Assembly: GCA_000004695.1 (NCBI GenBank)
Contig: CM000153.2
Coordinates: forward strand, 800,001-864,000
Direction: 5' to 3'
DNA from: Dictyostelium discoideum
Taxonomy: Eukaryota
DNA: 64,000 nucleotides
Made by a program: the position numbers and the translations under genes. Below, in pieces: positions 3,052-20,235 of the stretch (positions are counted from its first letter, which is position 1; every line of letters begins with the position of its first letter). The notes below the pieces were generated by a model that saw only the letters and a program-made list of their open reading frames with translations, was not told where the DNA came from and made no database searches.

Positions 3052-3468
3052 ATGGCTAAAGAGAATTATGAATTTTTCGTTGTCAGCGGTAAAGTTTCAA
3101 AAGGGTATGATTCAAACGGTCTTGCAGATCCTTATGTTAAAATGGGATATATTAGTAAAAAGACTGGTAAAACAGAATATTTCTTAAAAACCAAAGTAAT
3201 CAAATCCACATTATTACCAGAGTTTCAACATAAACAAGTTCAAGAATTGGATTCAGATGATATAGAAAAGGTTGTTATTGAAATGTATGATCATGACTTG
3301 ATTGGAAAGAATGACTTTATTGGTAAAGTTACTTTAGAAGGTAACTCTCTTACATGTCTATCAACTGAAGGTACTCTCATTAGATATCATTTGTTCAATG
3401 AAAATGACTCAGAATCAGTTGGTAAATCCACAGCTAATGTTTACTTGGGTATGAATAAAAAGGCCTAA
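3052..3468 (+). CDS. Small C2-domain protein (138 aa)
   Basis: The ORF FFVVSGKVSKGYDSNGLADPYVKMGY...KVVIEMYDHDLIGKNDFIGKVTL has a typical C2 beta-sandwich signature (DPYVK, hhhDxD...DDhhG). Confidence 0.6.
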   Translation: MAKENYEFFVVSGKVSKGYDSNGLADPYVKMGYISKKTGKTEYFLKTKVIKSTLLPEFQHKQVQELDSDDIEKVVIEMYDHDLIGKNDFIGKVTLEGNSLTCLSTEGTLIRYHLFNENDSESVGKSTANVYLGMNKKA

Positions 3469-3514
3469 ACTTCTTTAAAAATGTAATATAAAGTTTTAAA
3501 TAATTTTTTTTTTT

Positions 3515-3578
3515 TTCCAATTTATTTTATTAAGTTTAAACTCATTTAATACAAATAGATTAAATAAATAATATAATC

Positions 3579-3655
<77 letters not shown>

Positions 3656-3790
3656 TGAGCCATAATTCATTTTTAAACAAAATAAATTTAAAATTAATAA
3701 TTATCTCAGATAAAAAAATATGTTAATGGGTATTATCAAAGACCCATAGATGTAAGGTAGATTGATAATTTCCAACTCTATTTTTTTATT
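3515..3790. repeat. Direct repeat copy 1 (~270 bp, includes a ~70-nt poly(A)) flanking the patatin-gene 3' fragment
   Basis: 3515-3790 (tttaaactcatttaatac...poly(A)...cataattcatttttaaacaaaataaatttaaaattaataattatctcag...cccatagat...tttccaactctattt) is recognisably repeated at 4940-5190. Confidence 0.6.
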
Positions 3791-4024
3791 TTTTTTATTT
3801 CTATTTTTATTTTAATTATATTATTTTAATTTTTTATTATTATTTTTATTTTTATGTTTTATATCTTTAATTTTAATTCTATTATTATTATTATTTTTAT
3901 TATAATGGTGGTTATTGTTTGAATAAATATAAAAAATGATATAATTTAGTTTGAAAATAAATTAAATTTGATTTAACTTTTATATAAACATTATTATGAT
4001 TATTATTATTTGATTTTTAATCCT

Positions 4025-4690
4025 GTAAGAATTAAAACCATTCTTTATTGAAAAGGGAGTGCCAGAAATTGAAGTTTAATTTTTAATTTCATTTAATGGT
4101 ACTAAAGTACATAAGATATCCACAGTATCTGGTGGACTATTAATTACGAATGGAATTGAGAAATCTTGATTTGAAAGTAAAGGTGAAGGAGTTGAATAAT
4201 TGAGTTGTTTTTCAACATTTGAGTGATTAGTATTAAAAATATATCCTGGTGATGATGGAGAATTTTTAAATTGATTAATAATTTCAATTGGAATTTTATC
4301 TAGTCTACATTTTATTTTGCCAGTTAATTGTTGTAGATTGATTTAAGACCAAATCATTAATGTAAAATAATGATGATAAACATTTCTTTATGATTGAATG
4401 TATAATTGGATCATTTTTAGTTTTTTCAGATTGTTGTTTTAAAATATTCATTGTAATATCATCTACTGCATCTAAACCAATTGAATTTTGGAAACTTGGA
4501 TTATTTCTAAATGAATTTCTACCTTCTTTAATTAAATCATAAATTTCATGAACTTCTCTCCAAGAATTCTCACATTCTGTTAAAAGTTTAATAATATTTT
4601 CACCAACTTTAAAAATATTATTTAAATCGGCTTCTGGTGATGGGAAATTACCAGTACCAAGTGAACCAGGTCACATATAAAAGTCTAAAA
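4025..4690 (-). pseudogene. 3'-terminal fragment (~660 bp) of the GTPase-patatin paralog family. It contains stop codons and has no upstream exons
   Basis: Near-identical at nucleotide level to 10021-10680 (the 3' end of copy B). Homology ends abruptly at ~4690. There is an in-frame TAA (gaagtttaa) and small indels. No ORF is reported here. Confidence 0.7.
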
Positions 4691-4833
4691 CAAATTTAAT
4701 ACAAAAAAAAAAAAAAAAATTAAAATAAAATAAATAAAAAAATCTTTTAAAAATAGTCACAACAAAAATTAAAAAAAAAAAACATAACGATAAAAAAAAA
4801 CAGTTTAGGCCATTAATAATTTAAAAATGGATT

Positions 4834-4864
<31 letters not shown>

Positions 4865-4939
4865 TTTTTTTTAATAAAATATTTCTTATTTTTTTTTTTT
4901 TTCAGATATTTTTAAATAATAAAATAGTCAATATTTTCC

Positions 4940-5010
4940 ATTTAGTTTATTTAAACTCATTTTATTCCAAATAAATTAATAAAATAGTCCCAAAAAATAA
5001 TAAGAAATTT

Positions 5011-5057
<47 letters not shown>

Positions 5058-5190
5058 AAATAAATGATTTTTAATTCATTTTTAAACAAAATAATTTAAA
5101 ATTAATATTTATCTCAGGTTATAAAAAAAGATATCAATAGATATTATAAAAGACCATAGATATTTATAATTTCCAAATCTATTTATATAA
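4940..5190. repeat. Direct repeat copy 2 flanking the pseudogene fragment
   Basis: See 3515-3790. Shared blocks are the poly(A) tract, catttttaaacaaaataa, ttatctcag, ccatagat and atttccaa(a/c)tctattt. Confidence 0.6.
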
Positions 5191-5454
5191 AATTAATTCA
5201 TTTTCAAACTTTATTACCAAAAAAAAAAAAAGTAAATATTAGACACATAGAATTAATTTAAAAATATATTTTTTTATTTTATTTGTTTTTTTTATTGTAA
5301 ATTTTAATTAAGATATATAGAAATTATAGTTTTTTTTTTTTAATAATATATTAAAATATTTTTTTTTTATAATTTTAAAATGTTATTGGCAATTAATTTA
5401 AATAAAATTTATAAATGGTAAATTGCCAATGGATTTGATTAATTGTATGAATTT

Positions 5455-7623
5455 TTAATTTTTAGTAGTTATGAATGAATTCTCTATACCATTATTTATT
5501 GAAAAAGGATTACCTGAAATTGAAGTATCATTTTTAATATTATTTTTTGCAACCATAGTACATAAGATATCAATTATATCTGGTGGATTTTTGATTATGA
5601 ATGGATTTGAAAAATTATTTAATTGATTATTTGGGTGTGGAGGTGAAGGAGAAAAATATTGAAAATTTTTATCATTGTTTGAATACTTTAATACAAAAGC
5701 TGAACCTTTTTTTAATTGATTAATTATTTCGATTGGAATTTTATCAAGTCTACATTTTATATTACCAGTTAATTCTTTTTTAGATTTATTAAAAATTAAA
5801 TCATCAATGTAAAATAATGATGATAAAGATTTCTTTATAATTGAATGTACAGTTGGATCATTTTCAATGTTTACTTTTTGTTTTAAAATATTCATTGTAT
5901 TATCATCCATTTCATCCAAACCAATTGATTTCTGGAAACTTGGATTGTACCTAAATGAATTTTTACCTTCCCATATGAAACCATAATAAATTTCATGAAC
6001 TTCTCTCCAAGAATTTATAGATTGTGTTAAAAGATTATATTCCTGATCACCAACTTTAAAAATGTTATTTTTTTGATTTTCTGGTGATGGGAAATCACCA
6101 GTACCAAGTGAAACTAACGTGTCTAAGTTTCTACAAGGCCACATATCTTTATACTCTTTCATTGCAACTTTACAAGGATTATTATTCTTTAAACCACCAT
6201 CAAGAAATTGACGACTATTATATTCAAATGTTCTGAAATATTTAGGTGCAGCTGATGTGGCTTCAGCTGCGTCAGTTACTTTTGAACCAGATATAAAATG
6301 TGTTTGTTTTGAACATTTTGATGGGTATGTTTTTTTTTGATAATTTGAAAATATACACTCATCAAAATCACCAGACTCTTGTGTTACAGTTACAACTGCA
6401 GCCCTTATTTTTGGAAATGAAATTGATAAAAATTTGTCATTTAAAATGGTTTTATAACATTCTTTTAGTTTTTTTCTTTTATATTTGGGTTTTCCAAATA
6501 TATGGGTAATAATACCCAATGTAGGTCTTTCATAACCTTTTTTTGCCAAAATGTCAAATGATATAGCTAATTCTGGTAGTGTTTTCTCAGTTGATGCAAG
6601 TTGTAAAGCAACTAATCCACCTGCAGATGTACCAACAATTAAATCAAACAATTTTGAAATATGAATACCATATAGTTGCTTTTGTATTTCTTGTAAAACA
6701 TTGCAATGTAATATACCTCTAACTCCTCCACCATCCAATGATAGAACTCTTGCACCCATTGTTTTAATAAAATCTATTTCCTTTAATATATATTCTCTAT
6801 CCCCATAACATCCTGGAACTCTACATTCATCTTTAGGTCGATCAGGCATTTGAGAAAATATACCAAGTGAGCAATCTAAACATAGAAAATGTCCACATTT
6901 ATATTCTATATATGGAGAATTTAAACAACAACCAAAACAAACACCTTGATTTGTTGTTGCATGGCCAATGAAAACTTGTTTAATTGTTTCTTTACCAGAG
7001 AGGTGATTACTTAATAATAATGATAAATCATCATATTTTACTGATTCATCAAATTCTCCATCCCATGTATATCTTACTTCTGATTGGTTAAAAAAAGAGC
7101 CAAATATTTCAGTGTGCTTGGGTTTATATGTTTCACTTGATATATGCTTTGTATGAGTACCCCTAAAATTTGTACATGAATAGCCATGTACATTTTTTGA
7201 ACCACACGGTACCATCCCATGTATTTCACCTGATACTAGTTCTAATATGCTTTCAAAACGTGGATGCAATTTTTTAGAATACTCTGGACCTATGTGGTAA
7301 ATTTTTTTAAAATTTGTGTAAATCTCTGGCAATCTAAATTTTAATATATTCAAACAATGGGTGTAACTTTTTGATTCTTTTGAATTACATTTAAATGTTT
7401 CAACAAAATAATAATAATTTATTAAAAAGAATTCAAATAAGTAGTTGGCATGTAAATTTATCATTTGATCTGTCAAAGAATGTTCTTGATTTTTTGAATA
7501 AATTGGCAAAGTTGATTCTTCACTTCCAGATTTATGATTTTGATGTAAATTATCTAAGTCTGGATTAGTTTGAAAAAGACCATCTACTATTGGTCTTTCT
7601 TCTAGTTGTGTTTTATCAATATA

Positions 7624-7722
<99 letters not shown>

Positions 7723-8025
7723 ATTATTATTATTATTATTAGTATTATTAATATTATTATTATTATTATTATGATTTTTATTATTATTATTAGATGAAGT
7801 AGTTGTAGTTGTTGTTTTATTACTGATATTTGCCTCTCTATCCTTTAATATATCTGGTTCAAAATAAGATTCTTCTGAATTTATTGAAAATGTTATTGGT
7901 GTTCCTAAAAGATTTTGAATGGATTTAATTGATGAATCAGAAAATGTGTAATGTGACATATTCCCAATTTTATTTGAAGAAGAAGAAGAACTTGGCAAAT
8001 CTTCATCTGCATTAAAATTAATATA

Positions 8026-8096
<71 letters not shown>

Positions 8097-9490
8097 CATT
8101 ACTATTATTTGAAGTGAAATTTCTAAAAATTTTATTTGTTGATTTTGGTTCTTGAAAATTTGAAAAATCATCAATAATTCCAGTACAATTTAATTTAACT
8201 AAATCGGGTGAACCTATTGGATTTTTACTAAAGAAATTAGTTAAATTTGAAATTCTTTTCATACATTTTGATTTTTCAACAGAAATTTTTGGAGTTCTAT
8301 TATTTTTAAATTTTAAAGATTCTAAAACCTTTTCACTAATAGTTTCTTCCAATTTTTTAAATTGACTTTGATATCTATTAAAAGAATCTAATTCCTTTCC
8401 ATTAATATTTGGTAAGAAAATGATTGAAACTGATTGAAAACGTGTTTCTATCTCTTTTGAACCATGAAAATAATCCTTAAAATATTCTTTCTTGGCATAT
8501 TTCATATCATCATATTCTTTATTTTTATTAGAATTATTAAATAAAATGATTAAATGTGGACTACATGGATTATTTGCACTATCAGCTGCAACCGAAGAAA
8601 ATTCAAGTAAACTATCAATAACATCACCTCTATTTCTGGCATCACCATAAAATGTTAAAACAAAAACATCTGAACATAAATATAATAATCTTGGATAAGA
8701 TGATTGGACATATTTACTTCTAATATCAGCCTTCTAAATAATTAAATAAATAAAATAAAAAATAATAAAAAGAATTAGGAAAAAATCCATTATGAAATTA
8801 AAAATTTTTAATTTTTTAAAATCAAAATACAAACTATTAATAATGATTCATTTTTCTCATCTTTTTCTTTTTTTTCATTTCTTTCTTTTAAATCATTGGT
8901 TTTTTGAGAAAATGTTCCATTGATTCCTTCAGAATCAATAATTACATATTTAAACTTTTCTTCACCAACAGTTTCACCAATAAATGAATTTAAATCTGAA
9001 GAGGTTGATGTAATTGAATCACCACCAGGAATTGGATGATCGCAAGTTTTTGTCAAGTTACAAATTGTGGTTGATTTACCTGAGCCACTAGAACCAATAA
9101 AACTATCGACTAAAAATGGATCTTTATCTGATAATCCAATTTGACCCCATTTGTATCCATGATCAATTGTCTTTGTTTTAGTATTAACAAACAAAAGTTT
9201 ATTTTTTAAATCCATTGATCTATCATATTTTACAATATCATTGTAGCCTTGTGTGAATTTTTGATATTTAAGAAAAAAAGTAACCCTTTTAAATTCTTCA
9301 TAAGGAATTGTTTGGTGTTCTGATTCATCCTGATGTCTAGTTGCACATGATTTACAAATAATTCTATCTCCATTACATTGAAGACAAAAATGAAAATCAT
9401 CACTATTTGTTGATTCTTTTTGACATTTTTTAAAGTCACAAATTATTTTGGTAGGGTATTTATAAATTTCATCTTTTACAAATACCTTTT

Positions 9491-9494
<4 letters not shown>
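5455..9494 (-). CDS. Copy A (apparently intact, ~1312 aa) of a giant multidomain protein: N-terminal Cys/His zinc finger + P-loop GTPase (GBP/atlastin-like motifs), poly-Asn linker, RING-like Cys cluster and patatin-like phospholipase domain
   Basis: Exon 1 is about 8835-9494: MEKVFVKDEIYKYP..., zinc finger C-x4-C-x10-H-x-C-x2-C-x7-C-x2-C-x3-H-x5-H, GSSGSGKST, DSEG. Exon 2 is 5455-8733, starting right after ttag: KADIRSKYVQSSYPRLLYLCSDVFVLTF...; CFGCCLNSPYIEYKCGHFLCLDCS...CRVPGC; LSLDGGGVRG; GTSAGG; DGGLKNNNP. The intron is ~100 nt and AT-rich. The donor in copy A is non-canonical (GTTTGT), so its position is approximate. Confidence 0.7.
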
Positions 9495-9552
<58 letters not shown>

Positions 9553-10009
9553 TAGGGTATTTTATTTAAAAAAAAAAAGTTTATTTTATTTTAAGTTTAC
9601 AATTTTACAAAATTGTTGAGTAAATAATATTACAATTTTAAATAATAATATAATAATAATGTTATAAAAAAAAATAAAAAAAAAAAAATAAAAAAAAAAA
9701 AAAAAATAAAAAAATAATAAAAAAAAAAAAAAAATAAAAATGAAAATAAAAATAAAATTAATTTCACACTATTGCACTTAAATAATTACAAAGATGGTGG
9801 TAATAAAAATAACATCACCCATATTTTTATTATTTTTGTAATTTTTAATATTCATTCAAATAAAGACCACCATTTTTTTTTTTTTATTTTAATTTTTTTT
9901 TTTTTTTTAATTCTATTTTTATTTTTATTATTATTTTGATTATTTAATTTTTTAATTCTATTTTTATTTTTATTTTTATTTTTATTATTATTATTTTTAT
10001 TATTTTTTT

Positions 10010-13965
<3,956 letters not shown>

Positions 13966-14463
13966 TTCTACAATAAAAAAAAAAAAATTTGTAAAAAAAA
14001 AATTATTAAAAAAAAAAAAAAAAAAATTTAAAATTTTTTTTCTTTTATCAACTTAAAAATGCTTCCAAATTTTTCCACTTCAAAATTCAACCACTTAAAA
14101 ATGCTTCAAAATTTTTTTTTTTTTTTTTTAAAATCTTAAGTTTGATTTGGGCCAATATTTTTTTTTCAATTTTTAAAAAGAAAATAAAAAAAGGATTAAT
14201 AATAATTAAATTTAAAATTTGATACCAACAATTTTGAATTCTAAAAATAAACTTTTTTTTATTATTTTAAAGTCCCTTCAAATTTTTGTAATTACAAATA
14301 TTAATATGGTGAATTTTATAATTACAAATATTTTTTATTTTTAAAGTCAATACTGTGAGTGTAACTTAGAAAAAAAAAATTTTTATTTCTTTATTTTTTT
14401 TTTTTTTTATTTTAATTTTTTTTATTTTATTTTTTTTCTAAACCCCACAAATATATTTTTTTT

Positions 14464-14498
<35 letters not shown>

Positions 14499-14892
14499 TT
14501 TTTTTTTTTTTTTTGTATTTATTTTTTTATTCATTTATTTATTTATTTATTTATATATTTATTTATTTTATTTTTTAAATCAAAAATTTTATTTTTAGAA
14601 TTTAATTATTTATCATTCATTTTTAATTATTTTTTTATTTTGAAGAACAACAACTAGTGAATATATTTTATATAAAAAAATTAATTTGGTTGAATTAATT
14701 GTTATATTTTTTTTTTTTTTAAAAAAAAAAAATTTGAATGTTTGAATTAATAAATTAAAAACAACCTATCAAGATTTAATTCATTAATAAAAAAATAAAA
14801 ATAAAATAATTAATTCAGTCATGTTAATTTTTTTTTTCTCAATTGAACCCAAAAAAAAAAAAAAATTAAAAATAATAATAATAATTAAATTC

Positions 14893-14964
14893 GTTTTTGT
14901 GTATTTTTGGGTGCTTTATTTATCTATACTAAATTCATATTAAAAATTAATAAATTTAAATTGT

Positions 14965-14995
<31 letters not shown>

Positions 14996-15330
14996 CGGGT
15001 CTAATTTGAATGTTATCATCAATATTCTTCAAAATAAAAAAATAATTACAAGAAATGGATGAAAAATAATTAAATTCTAAAAATAAAATTTGATTTAAAA
15101 AATAAAATAAAAAATTCAAAAAACAGAATGATTACATTCATTTTTTTTAATTTTTATATCATTTTGTGTATTTTTGAGTGCCCTATTTATCTATACTTAA
15201 TTCATATTAAGAATTAATAAATTGTTTGAAAAAAAAAAAATGAAAAATAAAATGAAAAAAAAAATGAAAATTTTTTTTTTTTTTTTTTTTTTTTTGTGTG
15301 TCCAGTTTGAATGTTTTTATAAATATTTTT
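14893..15330. repeat. Two direct copies (~140 bp each, period ~270 bp) of an intergenic element between copies B and C
   Basis: 14893-15030 gtttttgtgtatttttgggtgctttatttatctatactaaattcatattaaaaattaataaatt...poly(T)...cgggtctaatttgaatgtt corresponds to 15163-15330 attttgtgtatttttgagtgccctatttatctatacttaattcatattaagaattaataaatt...poly(T)...gtgtgtccagtttgaatgtt. Confidence 0.6.
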
Positions 15331-15505
15331 ATTTTTGTTTTTTTTCTATTTTTATTGTTAATTTTTAAAATTTTAGTTCTATTTTTTTTTTTTATTTTTT
15401 TTTTTTTATTATTATTTTGATTATTTAATTTTTTAATTCTATTATTATTTTTATTTTAATTTTTTTATTTATTTTTAATTTTATTATTATTATTATTATT
15501 TTTTT

Positions 15506-18500
15506 TTAATCCTCCAAAAGTATGAATAAATTATTTATACCATTCTTTATTGAAAAGGGAGTGCCAGAAATTGAAGTTTCATTTTTAATTTCATTCAATG
15601 GTACTAAAGTACATAAGATATCAATAGTATCTGGTGGACTATTAATTACGAATGGAATTGAGAAATCTTTATTTGGAGGTAAAGGTGAAGGAGTTGAATA
15701 TTTAAATTGTTTTTCAACATTTGAGTGATTAGTATTAAAAATAAATACTGGTGATGAGTTTTTAAATTGATTATTAATTTCGATTGGAATTTTATCAAGC
15801 CTACATTTTATATTACCAGTTAATTGATTTGTAGATTGATTTAAGACCAAATCGTCAATGTAAAATAATGATGATAAACATTTCTTTATGATTGAATGTA
15901 TAATTGGATCATTTTTAGTTTTTTCAGATTGTTGTTTTAAAATATTCATTGTAATATCATCTACTGCATCTAAACCAATTGACTTTTTGGAAACTTGGAT
16001 TGTGTCTAAATGAATTTCTACCTTCTTTAATTATATCATAAATTTCATGAACTTCTCTCCTAGAATTTTCACATTCTGTTAAAAGATTAATAATCTTTTC
16101 ACCAAATCTAAATAAATTATTTAAATCTGCTTCTGGTGATGGGAAATTACCAGTACCAAGTGAAGCCAAAATATCAATATTTCTACCAGGCCACATATCT
16201 TTACACTCTTTCATTGCAACTTTACATGGATTATTATTGATTAAACCGCCATCTTGAAATTGACGATAATTAAATTCAAATTTTGAGAAAAAAGTTGGTG
16301 CAGCTGATGTTGCCTCTGCAGCGTCAATTACATTTGAATTGGTAATGAATTTCCTTTGTTCTGAACATCTTGTTGGGTTAGTCTTTTTTTGGTAATTTAA
16401 AAATAAACATTCCTCTAAATTACCAGATTCTTGAGTTACTGATGTAACTGCTACTCTAATTTTTGAGAATGAATTTTTTAATTTTTCATCAGGTGGGAAT
16501 ATAGTTTTGAAGGATTCTCTTAGTTTATCTCTACTATATTTTGGTTTTGATACTAGGTTAGCTAATAATTGGAATGGATGTTTTACAAATACACTTTTTG
16601 ATAAACTTTCCATTGCTGTACTTAATTGTGCAGGAGTCTTTTGTGTTGATGCTAATGCCAATGCAACCAATCCTCCTGCTGATGTACCAACGATTAAATC
16701 GAATAAAGAAATGATTGGAATGTCAAATAGTTGTTTTTGAATTTGTTCCAATGCATCACAATGTAAAATACCTCTTACACCACCACCATCTAATGATAAT
16801 ATTCTTACACCCATTGTTTGTATTTTATCGATTTCTTTGATCTTACAAGAAAGTTTTCCATTACATCCCCTTACTCTACAACCTTCGTCCGATGTATTTT
16901 GGGTTTGGTCAATAAATCTACCAAGTGAACAATTTAAACATAATAAATGACCACATGTATATGGTATATATGGCGAATTCAAACAACAACCAAAACAAAC
17001 ACCTTGATTTGTTGTTGAACCTTGTATATTGTATGGTAGAATTCTAGGTATACTAGTAAGACGATTACTTAAAAATACCGATAAATCAAAGTATTCTAAT
17101 GATGGCACAAATTCACCATCCCACATATACCTTACGAATGTGTCGGTTTTAAAAAATCCTAACAAACCACCATTTGATAATTTATAAGTTTCATTTGATT
17201 GATGGTTTCTATGAGTTTCTCTATAATTCGTACAAGAATGACCTTTTGCATTCTTTGAACTACATGGTACCATCTTAAATATTTCTTTTGAAACTAAATC
17301 TAAAGTCTTTTTAAAAGATGGATGCAATTTTTTTGAAAACTCTGAATTAATATTATTTGTTTCCTTAAAAATTGAATAAACGTTTGGCAACTTTATTTTC
17401 AAAATTTCTAAACTATCAGAATAACATTTTGATAATGATGATGATGGTTTATTCTCTACTAAATAATTATAATTTATTAAAAAAAATTCTAATAAATACT
17501 GTGCATATTTACAAAGATGTAAATCACTTAAATTATTATCAAGTTTTATGACAGATGTGTTTAATGGTGATGATTGTGATCTTTTTAATGGTGATTGTGA
17601 TGGAGTTGTTGATGAACTATTTGATAATTTTGATGGTTGTGGTGATGGTGGTTGTAATGGTGATGGCGATGGTGGCAATTCTAATGATTGATATGATTGT
17701 GATGGAGATGGTGATGGTGTTGATAGTGTTGATGATGATGGAGTTGTTGATGAACTATTTGGTAATGTTTTTAATTCACTAATTTGTCTTTGCTGTGATG
17801 GTGGTGGCGATTGTAATGATTGATATGATGGTGATGGTGTTAATTCAATAACTTGTCCTTTTTGTAAATTTTCATTATTATATTTATTATAATGGTCTTG
17901 TGGAACAGTATCATCAATCTCTGGACGTAAAAATGATTGAATTTGAAAAAGCTCATCTGCTATTGGTCTTTCTTCAAGTTGTGATTTATCAATGTAACTA
18001 TTATAATCTTTATCATTATTATTAATAATTTTATCATTACTATTATTAATATTACTATTAATATTATTATTATTATAATAATTATTATCATTACAATTAT
18101 TTTTATTATTAATAATATTATTATTATTATTAATAATAATATTATTATTATTATTATTTTTATTATTATTATAATTATAATTATAATTATTATTTTTATT
18201 ATTATTATTATTATAATTATTATTATTATAATTATTATTATTTAAATTATTGTCCGAATTATTTTTTGAATTTGTAAATTTATCTCTATTGATAGGAGAC
18301 AATCCGGTTTGTGGTTGTCTGTTATTTTCATTTAATGGTTTCAAATTTCCCACTGAATATGTTCTGACCCTATCTCTAACTAAATTTGATTCTAATTCAA
18401 CGGGTTTTGAAGTATGCAAAGGTGGTGGTGAATTAAAAATAGTATGAAGACTTTTAATTGATGATGACGGAATTGGTGTTGAGAGATGTGATTTATTAAC

Positions 18501-18544
18501 AACTCTAGAGTTATTACTATTATTGTTATTATTATTATTACTAA

Positions 18545-18607
<63 letters not shown>

Positions 18608-18608
18608 G

Positions 18609-18643
<35 letters not shown>

Positions 18644-18721
18644 AAGAGATGGGCATTGATGGGATTGTTTTATTATTATTATTACTTTTATTATTATTAT
18701 TATTACTTTTATTATTACTAC

Positions 18722-18803
<82 letters not shown>

Positions 18804-19510
18804 ATTATTATTATTATTATTAGAGAAGGACGTTGATGGAACAGTTTTATTATAAATTGGTTTTAATTTATGTGTACTTGGTAATGGTTTTTGTAGTTGA
18901 GCTTGATAATCATTAAGTGAAATTTCATCAAATTTTCTTACTATACCAGTACAATTTAATTTAATTAAATCAGGGGAACCATCTGGATTAGAACTAAAGA
19001 AACTAGCTAAACTTGAAATTTTTTGCATTGATCTTGATTTTTCAACCGAAATTTTTGGACTTCTGCTTTCTTTGTATTTTAAAGATTCCAATACTTTTTC
19101 ACTAATCGTTTCTTCCAATTTTTTAAATTGTCTTTGATATCTATGGAAGGTATTATTTGATTTTTCATTAAAATTAGGTAAGAAAATTATTGATACTGAT
19201 TGAAAACGTAATTGTAAGTCGATTAAATGTGAATGTTGATCTTTGAAATATTCATTCTTTGCGAATGCCATATCATCATATTGTTCTTTTTTAGAGGAAT
19301 TATTAAATAAGATGATTAAATGTGGACTGCATGGATTATTGGTACTATCGGCTGCAACCTGAGAATATTGGACTAATCTATCATAAACATCAGCTCTATT
19401 TCCTGCATTGCTATCAAATGTAAACACAAATACATCTGAACACAAATATAATAATCTTGGATATGAATATTGAATAAATGGAGTTCTTATTTGAGCTTCC
19501 TAATTTTTGT

Positions 19511-19563
<53 letters not shown>

Positions 19564-20235
19564 TTAATATATCTTTTGGAAAAAAAAAAAAAAAAAAATG
19601 ATAATAATAATTACTTGGAGTTTTATTTTATTTGTTGTTTGAGAATTTGTTCCATTTATACCTTCAGAATCAATTATTAAATATTTATAATTTTTATTAC
19701 TACCCATTGTTTCGCCAATAAAAGAATTAATATCAGAAGATGTTGAAGAAAGAGTTTCATGATTTCCAGGAATTGGATGGTTATAATTTTTAGTTAAATG
19801 ACCAATTGTAGTTGATTTACCTGAACCACTGGTACCAATAAAACTAACAACTAAAAATGGTTCATTATCAGATAACCCAATTGAATCCCATTTATTTCCA
19901 AAATCAATTTTCTTTGATAAAGTATTAATAAATAATAATTTATTATCTCTATCCATTGATTCATTATATTGTTTAATATGTTGATAATCTTTAGTGAATT
20001 GTTCATACTTTAAAAAAAATGTAACTTTTTTATATTCTTTATATGGTATAGTTTGATGATCTGTTTGTCCAGTATAACCTTTTTTACAAGAAGTACAAAC
20101 TATTTTATCATCAGTGCATCCCAGACAATAATGAAAGTCTTCAATATTTGTTGACTCTTTTAAACATCTTTTTAAACCACATTTCATTTTATTACTATGT
20201 CTATAAACTTCATCTTTTACAAATGTTTGTTTCAT
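15506..20235 (-). CDS. Copy C of the GTPase-patatin family. Exon 1 and most of the body are intact, but a 1-nt insertion near 15950-15980 shifts the frame so the last ~147 codons are read in another frame. This is a possible pseudogene or a sequence error
   Basis: Exon 1 is 19615-20235: MKQTFVKDEVYRHS..., GTSGSGKST, DSEGINGT, donor CTCCAA|GTAATT. Exon 2 is 19499 downward, starting after ttag: EAQIRTPFIQYSYPRLLYLCSD.... Body ORF 15957-19445 plus separate-frame ORF 15506-15949 encode the conserved C-terminus. Copy C has gactttttgg where copy B has gaattttgga. Confidence 0.65.

What the first reader, a model, noticed from the sequence alone, without database searches (positions are those of the whole stretch)
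3515..5190. A 660-bp 3' remnant of the family flanked by ~270-bp direct repeats that contain long poly(A) tracts
4025-4690 is a near-exact copy of the last 660 bp of copy B (including the 3' UTR stub) and ends abruptly. It is bracketed by two copies of the same ~270-bp element (3515-3790 and 4940-5190), each with a 45-70 nt poly(A). This looks like an unequal-crossover or duplication scar at the edge of the array. The poly(A)+unit structure could alternatively be the tail of an unrecognised non-LTR element that mobilised a 3' gene fragment, though I could identify no reverse-transcriptase ORF.
Basis: seen in the sequence. Interest (0 to 1): 0.5.

Follow-up and report, generated by a model that had tools for sequence, protein, structure and literature searches.

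The report
Dead gene fragment from messy duplication
This is an ordinary dead 3' piece of a patatin-like phospholipase gene at the edge of a copy-number-variable gene array in Dictyostelium discoideum, and its "flanking repeats" are two copies of the normal spacer DNA next to the neighbouring gene, left by a messy DNA duplication and not by a mobile element.

Summary
Window 4017-4682 (minus strand) is a disabled copy of the last ~213 codons of a B-type patatin-like phospholipase gene, 94% identical to copies B and C and 78-79% to A. It lies between two homologous ~270-290-bp segments, E1 (~3462-3783) and E2 (~4918-5184).

The segments are not a repeat family or transposon. Two other D. discoideum isolates carry exactly one copy at the same place, between the convergent C2-domain gene DDB_G0283549 and patatin gene A, and they have no fragment. 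The poly(A) tract sits at the same spot in three other genomes, varies in length (73 A here, 29 A in a re-assembly of the lab strain), and points the wrong way to be a retro-tail of the fragment.

The fragment brought its own B-type 3' spacer. That spacer is interrupted by an 88-bp insert made of two inverted local pieces, one of which continues the ancestral sequence exactly where E1 breaks off. So this is a DNA-level partial duplication with non-homologous, complex junctions (template switching, or duplication plus deletion plus inversion). It is neither clean unequal crossover nor retroposition.

Whether AX4 gained the structure or the other isolates lost it is unresolved. The finding is ordinary and of low interest.

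The parts
3052..3468 (+). C2-domain gene DDB_G0283549 (context). It is convergent with the patatin array, and its 3' flank is the left part of E1.
   Evidence: Pfam C2 match, E 1.4e-13. Exact match to XP_639006.1/EAL65652.1 of D. discoideum AX4.
3469..3579 (+). E1 'pre' part: the C2 3' flank, orthologous to the single copy in L002, L004 and L006.
   Evidence: Alignment A2. Profile from L002+L004 hits 3462-3576, E 4e-15. Mismatch divergence to L002/L004 is 3.4-4.6%.
3580..3652 (+). Poly(A) tract 1: 73 A here, 29 A in the re-assembly L001. It is an ancient, length-variable intergenic homopolymer.
   Evidence: An A-tract sits at the same position in L002 (~10 A), L004 (~37) and L006 (~37).
3653..3783 (+). 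E1 'post' part: a copy of the distal 3' flank of gene A. Homology stops at 3783/3784 (junction J1).
   Evidence: 81% identical to 5072-5184, z = 26. The L002+L004 profile matches positions 3-112 only, E 1e-16. Alignment A2.
3784..3899 (+). T-rich B-type proximal 3' spacer: the ~115 bp that lie just downstream of the stop codon of every B-type gene.
   Evidence: 82-83% identical to the spacers of AX4 B, AX4 C, L006_B and L006 copy 1, z 3.9-7.0 (shorter or weaker matches to L002_B, L004_B and L005_B, z 2.7-3.6).
3903..3940 (-). Inverted copy of the B-type distal spacer, ending in the motif ATTCAAAyAAnnACCACCATT.
   Evidence: In AT-rich context the motif occurs on the + strand about 145-355 bp downstream of the B-type stop in AX4_B (9866), L002 (15374) and L006 (4918). 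It occurs once more, inverted, at 3905. About 33/41 bases match by eye. The local alignment is only z = 2.7, so this piece rests mainly on the rare motif.
3941..3987 (-). Inverted copy of the first 47 bp of the A-spacer, the sequence that directly follows E-post in the ancestral arrangement.
   Evidence: 45/47 to L002 10672-10718 and 44/47 to L004 10705-10751, z about 8. The L002+L004 profile matches positions 111-157 on the minus strand, E 7e-5, starting exactly where E1 stops.
3988..4016 (+). Remainder of the B-type proximal spacer, next to the stop codon.
   Evidence: Alignments.
4017..4682 (-). Pseudogene fragment: the last ~213 codons of a B-type patatin-like phospholipase gene, starting just after the Patatin domain. 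Lesions: TAA stop at 4077-4079, 2-bp frameshift deletion at 4330/4331, 13-bp deletion at ~4030, 22-bp deletion at ~4668, and the whole 5' part missing (~1075 codons).
   Evidence: The Patatin domain of B is aa 874-1068 of the 1305-aa ORF.
4683..4900 (.). A/T-rich filler at junction J2, origin unknown. It may include a degraded extension of E2 (AGGCC...TTTAAAAATG at 4807-4829 resembles the C2 stop region 3461-3483).
   Evidence: No significant match in 197 kb of Dictyostelium sequence, judged against shuffles. Repeat family D20.
4901..5017 (+). E2 'pre' part: a diverged, long-branch copy of the C2 3' flank.
   Evidence: Profile hits 4918-4987, E 4e-5. Keeps the ancestral AAAATAGTCAATAT segment that E1 has lost.
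5018..5055 (+). Poly(A) tract 2: 38 A here, ~28 A in L001.
5056..5184 (+). E2 'post' part. It runs straight on into the A-spacer, as in L002/L004.
   Evidence: The L002+L004 profile matches positions 9-158 across 5063-5218, E 1e-11. Alignment A2.
5185..9494 (-). A-spacer plus patatin gene A (ORFs 5455-8505 and 8808-9494), the first intact array member.
   Evidence: Orthologs in L002 and L004 are 89-91% identical at the 3' end.
9840..13927 (-). B-type distal and proximal spacer plus gene B. B or the B/C ancestor is the source type of the fragment.
15362..20235 (-). Gene C, a recent duplicate of B.
   Evidence: 93.8% identity over 4.2 kb. dS 0.029.

Best explanation
The region is the scar of a DNA-level partial gene duplication at the C2-proximal edge of a tandem array of large patatin-like phospholipase genes (A, B, C; all on the minus strand) in Dictyostelium discoideum AX4.

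Shown:
- The ancestral arrangement, still present in two other D. discoideum isolates, is C2 gene -> [intergenic E: C2 3' flank, A-tract, distal 3' flank of A] <- gene A <- B-type gene.
- In AX4, E is present twice. Between the two copies lie a B-type 3' spacer, the last ~213 codons of a B-type gene, and ~220 bp of A/T-rich filler.
- The fragment lacks a promoter, a start codon and the catalytic domain, and it carries a stop and a frameshift. It is a non-functional unprocessed pseudogene fragment.
- The poly(A) tracts are copies of an old, length-unstable intergenic homopolymer.

Inferred mechanism: a replication or repair error copied a segment running from just 3' of C2, through A, into the 3' end of the B-type gene. 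The extra copy of A was lost, either in the same event or soon after. This amounts to a tandem duplication plus an internal deletion plus a small inversion, or to a series of template switches between nearby A/T-rich tracts (FoSTeS/MMBIR-like). Read in reverse, the 88-bp inverted insert in the fragment's spacer is the fossil junction 'start of A-spacer | B-type distal spacer' that such a deletion of A would create.

Dating: the event is about as old as the split between the AX4 haplotype and those of the other two isolates. By parsimony it most likely happened on the AX4 lineage.
For: Synteny: L002 and L004 (other D. discoideum isolates) have C2 - one E - A - one B-type gene and no fragment. 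L005, L003 and L007 have one B-type gene and no E-post.

Non-circular profile from L002+L004: E1 matches profile positions 3-112, E2 matches 9-158 and continues into the A-spacer, and 3987-3941 (minus strand) matches 111-157.

E-post is found only at these syntenic places in 197 kb.

Fragment: 94% to B and C against 78% to A. Seven derived sites are shared with all D. discoideum B-type genes. NJ gives (frag,(B,C)).

The B-type spacer travels with the fragment.

Inverted pieces: 45/47 match, z about 8, plus the ACCACCATT motif.

Concordant ages: E1post-E2post 8.8% against E1post-L002/L004 8.6-9.5%; frag-B 6.0% against B-L004_B 5.8%.

Lesions.

An A-tract is present at the same site in L002, L004 and L006, and its length differs between two assemblies of the lab strain.
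Against: The order of pieces at junction J1 cannot be produced by one simple inversion. The T-rich spacer 3784-3899 is in direct orientation while the 88 bp to its right are inverted, so the exact series of steps is not reconstructed.

The origin of the 220-bp filler at J2 is unknown.

Microhomology at the junctions cannot be assessed in A/T-rich, ~6-9% diverged DNA.

Polarity (gain in AX4 or loss elsewhere) is not resolved. There is no outgroup for E-post. The fragment / (B,C) / (L002_B,L004_B) relationship is a trichotomy, with 49% bootstrap for frag+B+C.

The fragment's extreme 3' end and spacer share a few states with the C2-adjacent copy of L006, which a simple recent copy from B does not predict.

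The second inverted piece is statistically weak as an alignment (z = 2.7).
Confidence: 0.8

Rival explanations
1. Same structure, opposite polarity. The duplicated arrangement (E1 - fragment - E2) was already present in the common ancestor of the three D. discoideum haplotypes. L002 and L004 lost the fragment and one E by recombination between the two direct E repeats.
For: Direct repeats of ~285 bp are a natural substrate for pop-out deletion. The single E of L002/L004 is closer to E1 than to E2 in both parts (pre 3.4-4.6% against 9.8-11.9%; post 8.6-9.5% against 12.8-14.4%), as expected if it derives mostly from E1. The fragment branches at the base of the D. discoideum B-type clade (trichotomy). 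E2 keeps a state otherwise seen only in the distant L005.
Against: It needs two events (gain, then loss) instead of one. The E1-like look of the L002/L004 copy is equally explained by constraint on the C2 3' UTR together with relaxed evolution of E2. One derived site supports frag+B+C and none supports B+C+L002_B+L004_B without the fragment.
Confidence: 0.22
2. Classical unequal crossing-over (non-allelic homologous recombination) between misaligned array members produced the partial copy.
For: The array consists of direct repeats 73-94% identical. Copy number varies from 1 to 3 among isolates.
Against: NAHR places junctions inside homologous sequence and gives whole or chimeric genes. Here J1 joins the 3' flank of A to a B-type spacer, and J2 joins mid-gene B sequence to the C2 3' flank through ~220 bp of filler. 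J1 also contains 88 bp of inverted local sequence. An A/B crossover would place a hybrid gene between A and B, not next to C2.
Confidence: 0.07
3. Old remnant. The fragment is what is left of an ancient C2-adjacent B-type copy (orthologous to copy 1 of L006), with its body later homogenised by gene conversion from B/C.
For: L006 also has a degenerate B-type copy directly after the C2 A-tract. The fragment's spacer aligns best to the L006 copy-1 spacer (z 7.0 against 3.2-5.3). Positions 4025 and 4029 are shared exclusively with it. Two sites are shared by frag and B only, and two by frag and C only, which could be conversion tracts.
Against: The shared states lie next to a 13-bp deletion where the alignment is ambiguous, and the numbers are tiny. 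The T-rich spacers are all 82-83% alike. The model does not explain the duplicated E or the inverted A-spacer piece. L002 and L004 show no trace of such a copy.
Confidence: 0.08
4. Retroposition. A non-LTR element or its reverse transcriptase mobilised a polyadenylated RNA containing the gene's 3' end, and the repeats are a target-site duplication or the element's tail.
For: The formal layout 'repeat - insert - A-rich stretch (4686-4864) - repeat' resembles TSD - insert - poly(A) - TSD on the + strand.
Against: The long poly(A) tracts belong to the duplicated intergenic DNA and pre-exist in genomes without the fragment. Relative to the fragment's sense strand they are poly(T). The + strand RNA would be antisense and would start in an intergenic spacer. 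The 'TSD' would be ~285 bp, against the 5-20 bp usual for non-LTR elements (general knowledge). The insert carries non-transcribed-type flank with inverted local pieces. There is no ORF above 55 aa and none is RT-like, no tRNA gene in 64 kb, and no Rfam match.
Confidence: 0.02

Closest known systems
Unprocessed (duplicated) pseudogene fragments, i.e. 'dead-on-arrival' partial gene duplicates at the edges of tandem arrays
   Same: The copy was made at the DNA level and kept the parent's non-coding 3' flank. It is truncated (no promoter, start or catalytic domain), lies next to its family in the same orientation, and carries stop and frameshift lesions.
   Different: Nothing essential. The junctions are untidier than a textbook tandem duplication, with filler and inverted templated pieces.
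Complex rearrangements from replication-based template switching (FoSTeS/MMBIR) or templated-insertion end joining
   Same: There are several breakpoints within ~1.4 kb. Short segments are copied from templates within ~6 kb in direct and inverted orientation. A duplication flanks an insertion. The junctions lie in non-homologous A/T-rich tracts.
   Different: This mechanism is inferred from an old (~6-9% diverged) scar. Microhomology cannot be scored, and sequential independent events (duplication, deletion, inversion) give the same end product.
Partial gene duplicates at the Dictyostelium tgrB/C allorecognition locus (PMC12745789)
   Same: Same genus and the same set of genomes. [quoted passage not shown] Here a patatin array varies from 1 to 3 genes plus a fragment among the same isolates.
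   Different: The patatin locus is not the tgr locus and is not mentioned in that paper ('patatin' occurs 0 times). No role in recognition is known or shown, and the scale is far smaller.
Dictyostelium non-LTR retrotransposons (TRE5/TRE3) and processed retrocopies
   Same: Only superficial: long A-runs and flanking direct repeats.
   Different: No tRNA gene nearby, no reverse-transcriptase or endonuclease ORF, the poly(A) on the wrong strand and pre-existing, a 285-bp 'TSD', and non-transcribed flank copied along.

Membership tests
Unprocessed (DNA-duplicated) pseudogene fragment | Homology to a parent gene that extends into the parent's non-transcribed or non-coding flank | tested here: met
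   The B-type proximal 3' spacer (3784-3899, 3988-4016) accompanies the coding homology.
Unprocessed (DNA-duplicated) pseudogene fragment | Disabling lesions and/or truncation relative to intact paralogs | tested here: met
   TAA stop at 4077-4079, 2-bp frameshift at 4330/4331, 13- and 22-bp deletions, and ~1075 N-terminal codons including the Patatin domain missing.
Unprocessed (DNA-duplicated) pseudogene fragment | Neutral substitution pattern (dN/dS about 1) | tested here: inconclusive
   dN/dS of fragment against B is 1.12, but the same tail region gives 1.4 between the intact alleles B and L004_B. Substitutions on the fragment branch number 17 (by codon position 5/2/10), against 16-17 on the B and C lineages.
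Non-LTR retrotransposon insertion / 3' transduction / processed retrocopy | Poly(A) tail at the 3' end of the copied sense strand, created by the insertion | tested here: not met
   The A-tracts are on the strand opposite to the fragment's sense strand. The same tract exists at the orthologous site in L002, L004 and L006, which lack the fragment.
Non-LTR retrotransposon insertion / 3' transduction / processed retrocopy | Short target-site duplication (about 5-20 bp) flanking the insert | tested here: not met
   The flanking duplication is ~285 bp of structured intergenic DNA, and no short TSD was seen.
Non-LTR retrotransposon insertion / 3' transduction / processed retrocopy | Reverse-transcriptase or endonuclease ORF (autonomous element), or a tRNA-gene-proximal position (Dictyostelium TRE elements) | tested here: not met
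   No ORF above 55 aa in 3469-5454, and those present are homopolymer translations. No tRNA genes in the 64-kb window.
Dispersed repeat / MITE-like DNA element (for the ~270-bp unit) | Many copies at unlinked sites | tested here: inconclusive
   The profile finds it only at the syntenic site in 197 kb held here: twice in AX4, once each in L002 and L004. The complete genome and the dictyostelid repeat libraries could not be searched with these tools.
Dispersed repeat / MITE-like DNA element (for the ~270-bp unit) | Terminal inverted repeats and a short TSD | tested here: not met
   The inverted repeats found are only poly(A)/poly(T) pairings. The unit's ends are defined by duplication breakpoints, and on either side it continues in orthology with single-copy DNA.
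Tandem duplication by non-allelic homologous recombination (unequal crossover) | Novel junction lies within sequence homologous between the two partners | tested here: not met
   J1 (3783/3784) joins the 3' flank of A to a B-type spacer. J2 (4682/4683) joins mid-gene sequence to filler and the C2 flank.
Replication-based complex rearrangement (FoSTeS/MMBIR-type) | Multiple clustered breakpoints with short segments templated from nearby sequence, some inverted | tested here: met
   3941-3987 is the reverse complement of the A-spacer start (45/47). 3903-3940 is the reverse complement of the B-type distal spacer. Source sequences lie within ~6 kb.
Replication-based complex rearrangement (FoSTeS/MMBIR-type) | Microhomology (2-15 bp) at the junctions | tested here: inconclusive
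   The junctions lie in T- or A-runs ('CTATTT|TTTTATTTT', 'CACATAT|AAAAGTC'). Short matches are expected by chance in ~12% GC DNA, and the scar has diverged.
Patatin-like phospholipase family (for the parent genes) | Pfam Patatin domain PF01734 above the gathering score | tested here: met
   A 98.6 bits, B 110.6 bits and C 111.4 bits against a cut-off of 27.7. The fragment itself lies entirely C-terminal of the domain.

The most novel reading that the evidence does not exclude
The patatin array may be a fast-diversifying, copy-number-variable locus comparable in behaviour to the Dictyostelium tgr hotspots. It holds 1 to 3 genes plus fragments among close relatives, dN/dS is 0.36-0.71 overall and about 1 in the C-terminal tail, and complex junctions recur at A/T tracts. 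In that reading, partial copies such as this fragment persist as donors for gene conversion into the intact paralogs, and long A/T homopolymers act as recurrent template-switch hotspots. Sites shared only by fragment and B (2) or only by fragment and C (2), and the independent C2-adjacent B-type copy in L006, are compatible with this but do not show it.
Probability: 0.1. Interest if true: 0.5.

Novelty: new member of a known kind. Interest (0 to 1): 0.17.

Why it matters
In itself it matters little. It is one more unprocessed pseudogene fragment beside a tandem gene family. Its practical value is threefold.

(1) Annotation. At least one automated annotation (GCA_054883475.1) appears to fuse the fragment to gene A as a 1459-aa model. 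The fragment should be flagged as a pseudogene.

(2) Method. In a genome with ~12% GC intergenic DNA and ubiquitous homopolymers, 'poly(A) plus flanking repeat' is not evidence for retroposition. Orthologous single-copy sites settle the question quickly.

(3) Mechanism. The scar preserves an unusually readable record of how a Dictyostelium tandem array is remodelled: a duplicated target, the parent's own flank, and inverted local pieces that abut a breakpoint exactly. It shows that this patatin array differs in gene number between isolates that can still mate.

Tried and rejected
- The junction 4683-4907 as further degenerate copies of the C2 3' flank. Several shared 11-12-mers were seen by eye, but the nhmmer profile gives no hit there and local alignments are not above shuffles (9 to 335 of 500 shuffles reach the score). 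BLAST is not above shuffled queries for 4683-4806; for 4807-4907 the only hits above the shuffles are A/T-run (low-complexity or self-inverted) matches. Only the rare AGGCC...TTTAAAAATG at 4807-4829 remains as a weak hint.
- A remnant of E-post in L006 or L005. By-eye resemblances are better explained as B-type spacer, and the profile search finds nothing.
- A single inversion of 3784-3987. Rejected because 3784-3899 matches B-type spacers in direct orientation.
- The reverse complement of 3784-3988 as a copy of the A-B intergenic A-rich region (z 4-6). Rejected as low-complexity and not collinear.
- Rfam scan of 3300-5500: no hit at E up to 1.
- tRNA scan of the whole window: none.
- Protein database search with the frame-corrected fragment translation: no hit at all, despite 94% nucleotide identity to B. 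I treat this as a failure of the index and draw no conclusion from it. Gene names of A, B and C in dictyBase were therefore not obtained.
- The codon-position pattern and dN/dS as a test of pseudogene status are uninformative, because the intact genes' tails also evolve at dN/dS about 1.
- Bootstrapped Biopython tree timed out and was replaced by my own NJ script.
Full report
WHAT THE WINDOW IS. The window is ~20% GC. Its + strand ORF 3052-3468 is an exact match to the C2-domain protein DDB_G0283549 of Dictyostelium discoideum AX4. To its right, all on the minus strand, lie three large patatin-like phospholipase genes (Pfam PF01734, 99-111 bits). A is at 5455-8505 plus 8808-9494, B at 10010-13927, and C at 15506-19445 plus 19564-20235. 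B and C are 93.8% identical over 4.2 kb, and A is ~73% identical to either. No tRNA genes occur in the window.

CHECK OF THE OBSERVATION. A self-comparison shows that 3513-4665 is collinear with 4934-6112. The fragment region also matches 10037-10677 (B) and 15533-16168 (C). Segment-wise local alignments with shuffled controls give these results. The coding part 4031-4668 is 94% identical to B, 93% to C and 78% to A (z above 100). The post-poly(A) part 3663-3783 against 5072-5184 is 81% identical (z = 26). The pre-poly(A) part 3513-3570 against 4934-4986 is 78% identical (z = 2.8). The pure A runs are 73 nt (3580-3652) and 38 nt (5018-5055), and the window has 37 A/T runs of 25 nt or more. The fragment is full of stops in every frame. 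Relative to B it has a TAA at 4077-4079, a 2-bp deletion at 4330/4331, a 13-bp deletion next to the stop-codon homolog, and a 22-bp deletion just before homology ends at ~4682. It corresponds to B residues from ~1076 to the end, entirely C-terminal of the Patatin domain (aa 874-1068). The description is therefore correct, except that 'near-exact' overstates 94% and the poly(A) lengths are not robust.

WHAT THE 'ELEMENT' IS. Through the exact-sequence index I fetched the C2 locus from seven other assemblies. According to PMC12745789 these come from Nanopore plus Illumina assemblies of lab strains, D. discoideum isolates, two possible cryptic sister species and D. citrinum. L001 is a re-assembly of the lab strain, 99.2-99.5% identical. 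It has the same structure, but 29 instead of 73 A and ~28 instead of 38 A. In L002 and L004 (other D. discoideum isolates) the order is C2 - one copy of the unit - A ortholog - one B-type gene, with no fragment (L004 continues into calreticulin, L002's locus ends before it). In L005 and in D. citrinum (L003, L007) there is a single B-type gene and no post-poly(A) unit. L006 has its own rearranged B-type copy directly after the C2 A-tract.

The multiple alignment (A2) shows that the 'element' is simply the intergenic DNA between the convergent C2 gene and gene A: the C2 3' flank, an A-tract (~10 A in L002, ~37 in L004 and L006), and then ~115-130 bp that run on into the A-spacer. E1 continues leftwards into C2. 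E2 continues rightwards into the A-spacer in orthology with L002/L004. E1 leaves that orthology at 3783/3784.

A profile built only from L002+L004 recovers both copies. The pre part hits 3462-3576 (E 4e-15) and 4918-4987 (E 4e-5). The post part hits 3648-3783 (profile positions 3-112, E 1e-16) and 5063-5218 (positions 9-158, E 1e-11). A profile of the post part finds nothing else in 197 kb of Dictyostelium sequence, including the four genomes without gene A. The unit is therefore not a dispersed repeat in the data I hold. It has no terminal inverted repeats, no ORF above 55 aa and no Rfam match.

WHERE THE FRAGMENT CAME FROM. Mismatch-only distances over the shared ~640 bp are: fragment-B 6.0%, fragment-C 6.0%, B-C 3.3%, fragment-L004_B 6.2%, fragment-L002_B 8.5%, fragment-A 20.6%. 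Neighbour joining gives (fragment,(B,C)), with 87% bootstrap for B+C and 49% for fragment+B+C. Outgroup-polarised sites show seven derived states shared by the fragment and all D. discoideum B-type genes. Four are shared by B+C, five by L002_B+L004_B, one by fragment+B+C, and none by the four intact genes without the fragment. The fragment is thus a B-type copy that arose after the split from the cryptic species and D. citrinum, at about the time the AX4 and L002/L004 haplotypes separated.

The two E copies give the same relative age. E1post-E2post is 8.8%, against 8.6-9.5% for E1post versus L002/L004. Flanking intergenic DNA differs by ~7-8% between AX4 and those isolates. Both halves of the scar are therefore compatible with one event or one short burst. 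The B/C duplication is younger (whole-gene dS 0.029).

The fragment's substitution pattern does not separate it from the intact genes. It has 17 substitutions on its branch, against 16-17 on the B and C lineages. Its dN/dS is 1.12, against 1.4 for B versus L004_B in the same tail. The family as a whole evolves under weak constraint (dN/dS 0.36-0.71, against 0.12 for C2).

THE JUNCTIONS. Immediately right of E1, 3784-3899 matches the ~115 bp that lie just downstream of the stop codon of every B-type gene (82-83%, z 3.9-7.0 for the full-length matches, direct orientation). The fragment therefore came with its own 3' flank, which marks a DNA-level copy. Between that spacer and the fragment's stop-codon homolog there are ~120 extra bases.

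BLAST against everything held, with shuffled-query controls, shows that 3941-3987 is an inverted copy (45/47 and 44/47) of L002 10672-10718 and L004 10705-10751. This is the first 47 bp of the A-spacer, the sequence that in the ancestral arrangement directly follows the point where E1 breaks off (z about 8). The L002+L004 profile makes the same point: E1 covers positions 3-112, and the minus-strand hit 3987-3941 covers 111-157 (E 7e-5). This inverted copy is closer to L002 than AX4's own A-spacer start (5185-5215) is, because the latter has since lost 12 bp. The copy is therefore old.

Next to it, 3903-3940 is an inverted copy of the B-type distal spacer, ending in the motif ATTCAAATAAAGACCACCATT. 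In AT-rich context that motif occurs on the + strand about 145-355 bp downstream of the B-type stop in AX4_B, L002 and L006, and nowhere else except inverted here. As an alignment this second piece is weak (z = 2.7). Read in reverse, the 88-bp insert is 'A-spacer start | B-type distal spacer', which is the junction that deleting a copy of gene A from a larger duplicate would create.

At the other end, homology to B stops at ~4682. It is followed by ~220 bp of A/T-rich sequence with no significant match. E2 begins at about 4901-4918. A rare AGGCC followed by TTTAAAAATG at 4807-4829 resembles the last codons and stop of C2 (3461-3483; AGGCC is expected 0.02 times in 227 bp). E2 may therefore once have started inside C2, but this is weak.

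MECHANISM. Shown: the structure is [E1][B-type spacer, interrupted by inverted local pieces][last 213 codons of a B-type gene][filler][E2][A][B][C], against [E][A][B-type gene] in two other isolates. Inferred: a segment from just 3' of C2, through A, into the 3' end of the B-type gene was duplicated in tandem (new junction J2). The extra A was removed (fossil junction 'A-spacer | B distal spacer'), and a small inverted rearrangement produced the present order at J1. The same end product can arise in one replication or repair accident with several template switches among nearby A/T-rich tracts (FoSTeS/MMBIR-like). I cannot tell one event from several. A single inversion does not reproduce the order of pieces, because the T-rich spacer is in direct orientation.

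Clean homologous unequal crossover is contradicted, because neither junction lies in homologous sequence. Retroposition is contradicted on several counts. The A-tract is old and present in genomes without the fragment. It is on the wrong strand for the fragment. The flanking duplication is ~285 bp. Non-transcribed-type flank and inverted local pieces were copied. There is no reverse-transcriptase ORF and no tRNA gene.

Parsimony favours a gain on the AX4 lineage (one complex event) over an ancestral structure lost in L002/L004 by E1 x E2 recombination (two events). The distances do not decide this: the single E of L002/L004 is closer to E1 than to E2 in both parts. That fits either loss by recombination, or constraint on the C2 3' UTR together with a relaxed E2.

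COMPARISON WITH WHAT IS KNOWN. This is a member of a very familiar class, the unprocessed partial-duplicate pseudogene beside a tandem gene family. Its junction features are those described for replication-based complex rearrangements. The paper that produced the comparison genomes describes 'duplicates or partial gene fragments' accumulating at the dynamic tgrB/C locus of the same species (PMC12745789). The patatin locus is not mentioned there. Whether dictyBase already annotates this fragment as a pseudogene could not be checked, and the protein search that might have told me returned nothing.

VERDICT. The 'unequal crossover' mechanism and the 'non-LTR tail' alternative are not supported. 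The 'element' is duplicated ordinary intergenic DNA carrying an old, unstable A-tract. The finding is ordinary, with interest about 0.17. The most novel reading still open is that the array is a fast-diversifying locus in which such fragments act as conversion donors and A/T tracts act as recurrent switch points. I give that reading about 10%.

Noticed in passing
window 3580-3652 and 4965-5055; L001 10529-10557 and ~11860-11946: The reference-type window has 73 A and 38 A where an independent long-read assembly of the lab strain has 29 and ~28. Six substitutions between the two assemblies also cluster in 4965-5014. Homopolymer lengths, and this low-complexity stretch, are unreliable in at least one of the assemblies.
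   Followed up: partly
L001 10981-16385 (about window 4076-9494): The automated gene call of GCA_054883475.1 is a single 1459-aa minus-strand gene running from the fragment's premature stop to the ATG of gene A. It fuses the pseudogene fragment to gene A, which is probably an annotation artefact.
   Followed up: partly
window 13900-15400 (upstream of B) and ~15950 (gene C): Gene B has no counterpart of the ~225-aa N-terminal exon present in A (8808-9494) and C (19564-20235). Gene C has a 1-bp insertion relative to A, B and the fragment that splits its ORF (15506-15949 and 15957-19445). Both AX4 B-type genes may therefore be defective.
   Followed up: partly
L002-L007, between the C2 gene and calreticulin: The number of patatin genes at this locus differs among close relatives: 1 in L005 and in D. 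citrinum (L003, L007), 2 in L002, L004 and L006, and 3 plus a fragment in AX4. L006 copy 1 has internal deletions and an inverted segment (L006 2754-3003 against window 19548-19298). The L004 ortholog of A is split into three gene calls.
   Followed up: partly
window 5455-8505, 10010-13927, 15506-19445 against L002, L004 and L005: The patatin genes diverge between isolates almost as fast as intergenic DNA (~8% against ~7-8%). dN/dS is 0.36-0.71 overall and about 1 in the C-terminal tail, while the neighbouring C2 gene has dN/dS ~0.12. This indicates weak constraint or diversifying selection. The ~870 residues N-terminal of the Patatin domain have no Pfam match.
   Followed up: partly
L003 10521-11598; L007 10509-11596: D. 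citrinum has an alpha/beta-hydrolase gene (Pfam Abhydrolase_1/6) between the C2 gene and the patatin gene. It is absent from all discoideum-clade loci.
   Followed up: no
window 14437-15361: The junction of the B/C tandem duplication holds ~925 bp of very AT-rich DNA with no match elsewhere. It has an internal 62-bp direct repeat (14895-14956 and 15162-15223, 92%). The left limit of B/C homology (9878) lies right after the GACCACCATT motif, the same motif found inverted at 3903-3925.
   Followed up: partly
window 4017-4036 and 3784-3899; L006 838-1059: The fragment's extreme 3' end and spacer share states with the C2-adjacent degenerate copy of L006 (G at 4025 and 4029 exclusively; spacer alignment z 7.0 against 3.2-5.3 for other B-type spacers). 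The fragment body, however, groups with D. discoideum B-type genes. This could be a mosaic, retained ancestral states, or alignment ambiguity next to a 13-bp deletion.
   Followed up: partly
window 4807-4829 against 3461-3483: AGGCC...TTTAAAAATG inside the 'filler' resembles the last codons and stop region of the C2 gene (AGGCC is expected 0.02 times in 227 bp). The duplicated segment may originally have started inside C2.
   Followed up: partly
window 3581-3654 against 3787-3860: The 73-nt A-tract and the T-rich B-type spacer 132 nt downstream form a 74-nt, 77% complementary inverted repeat. This potential hairpin sits exactly at the complex junction J1.
   Followed up: no
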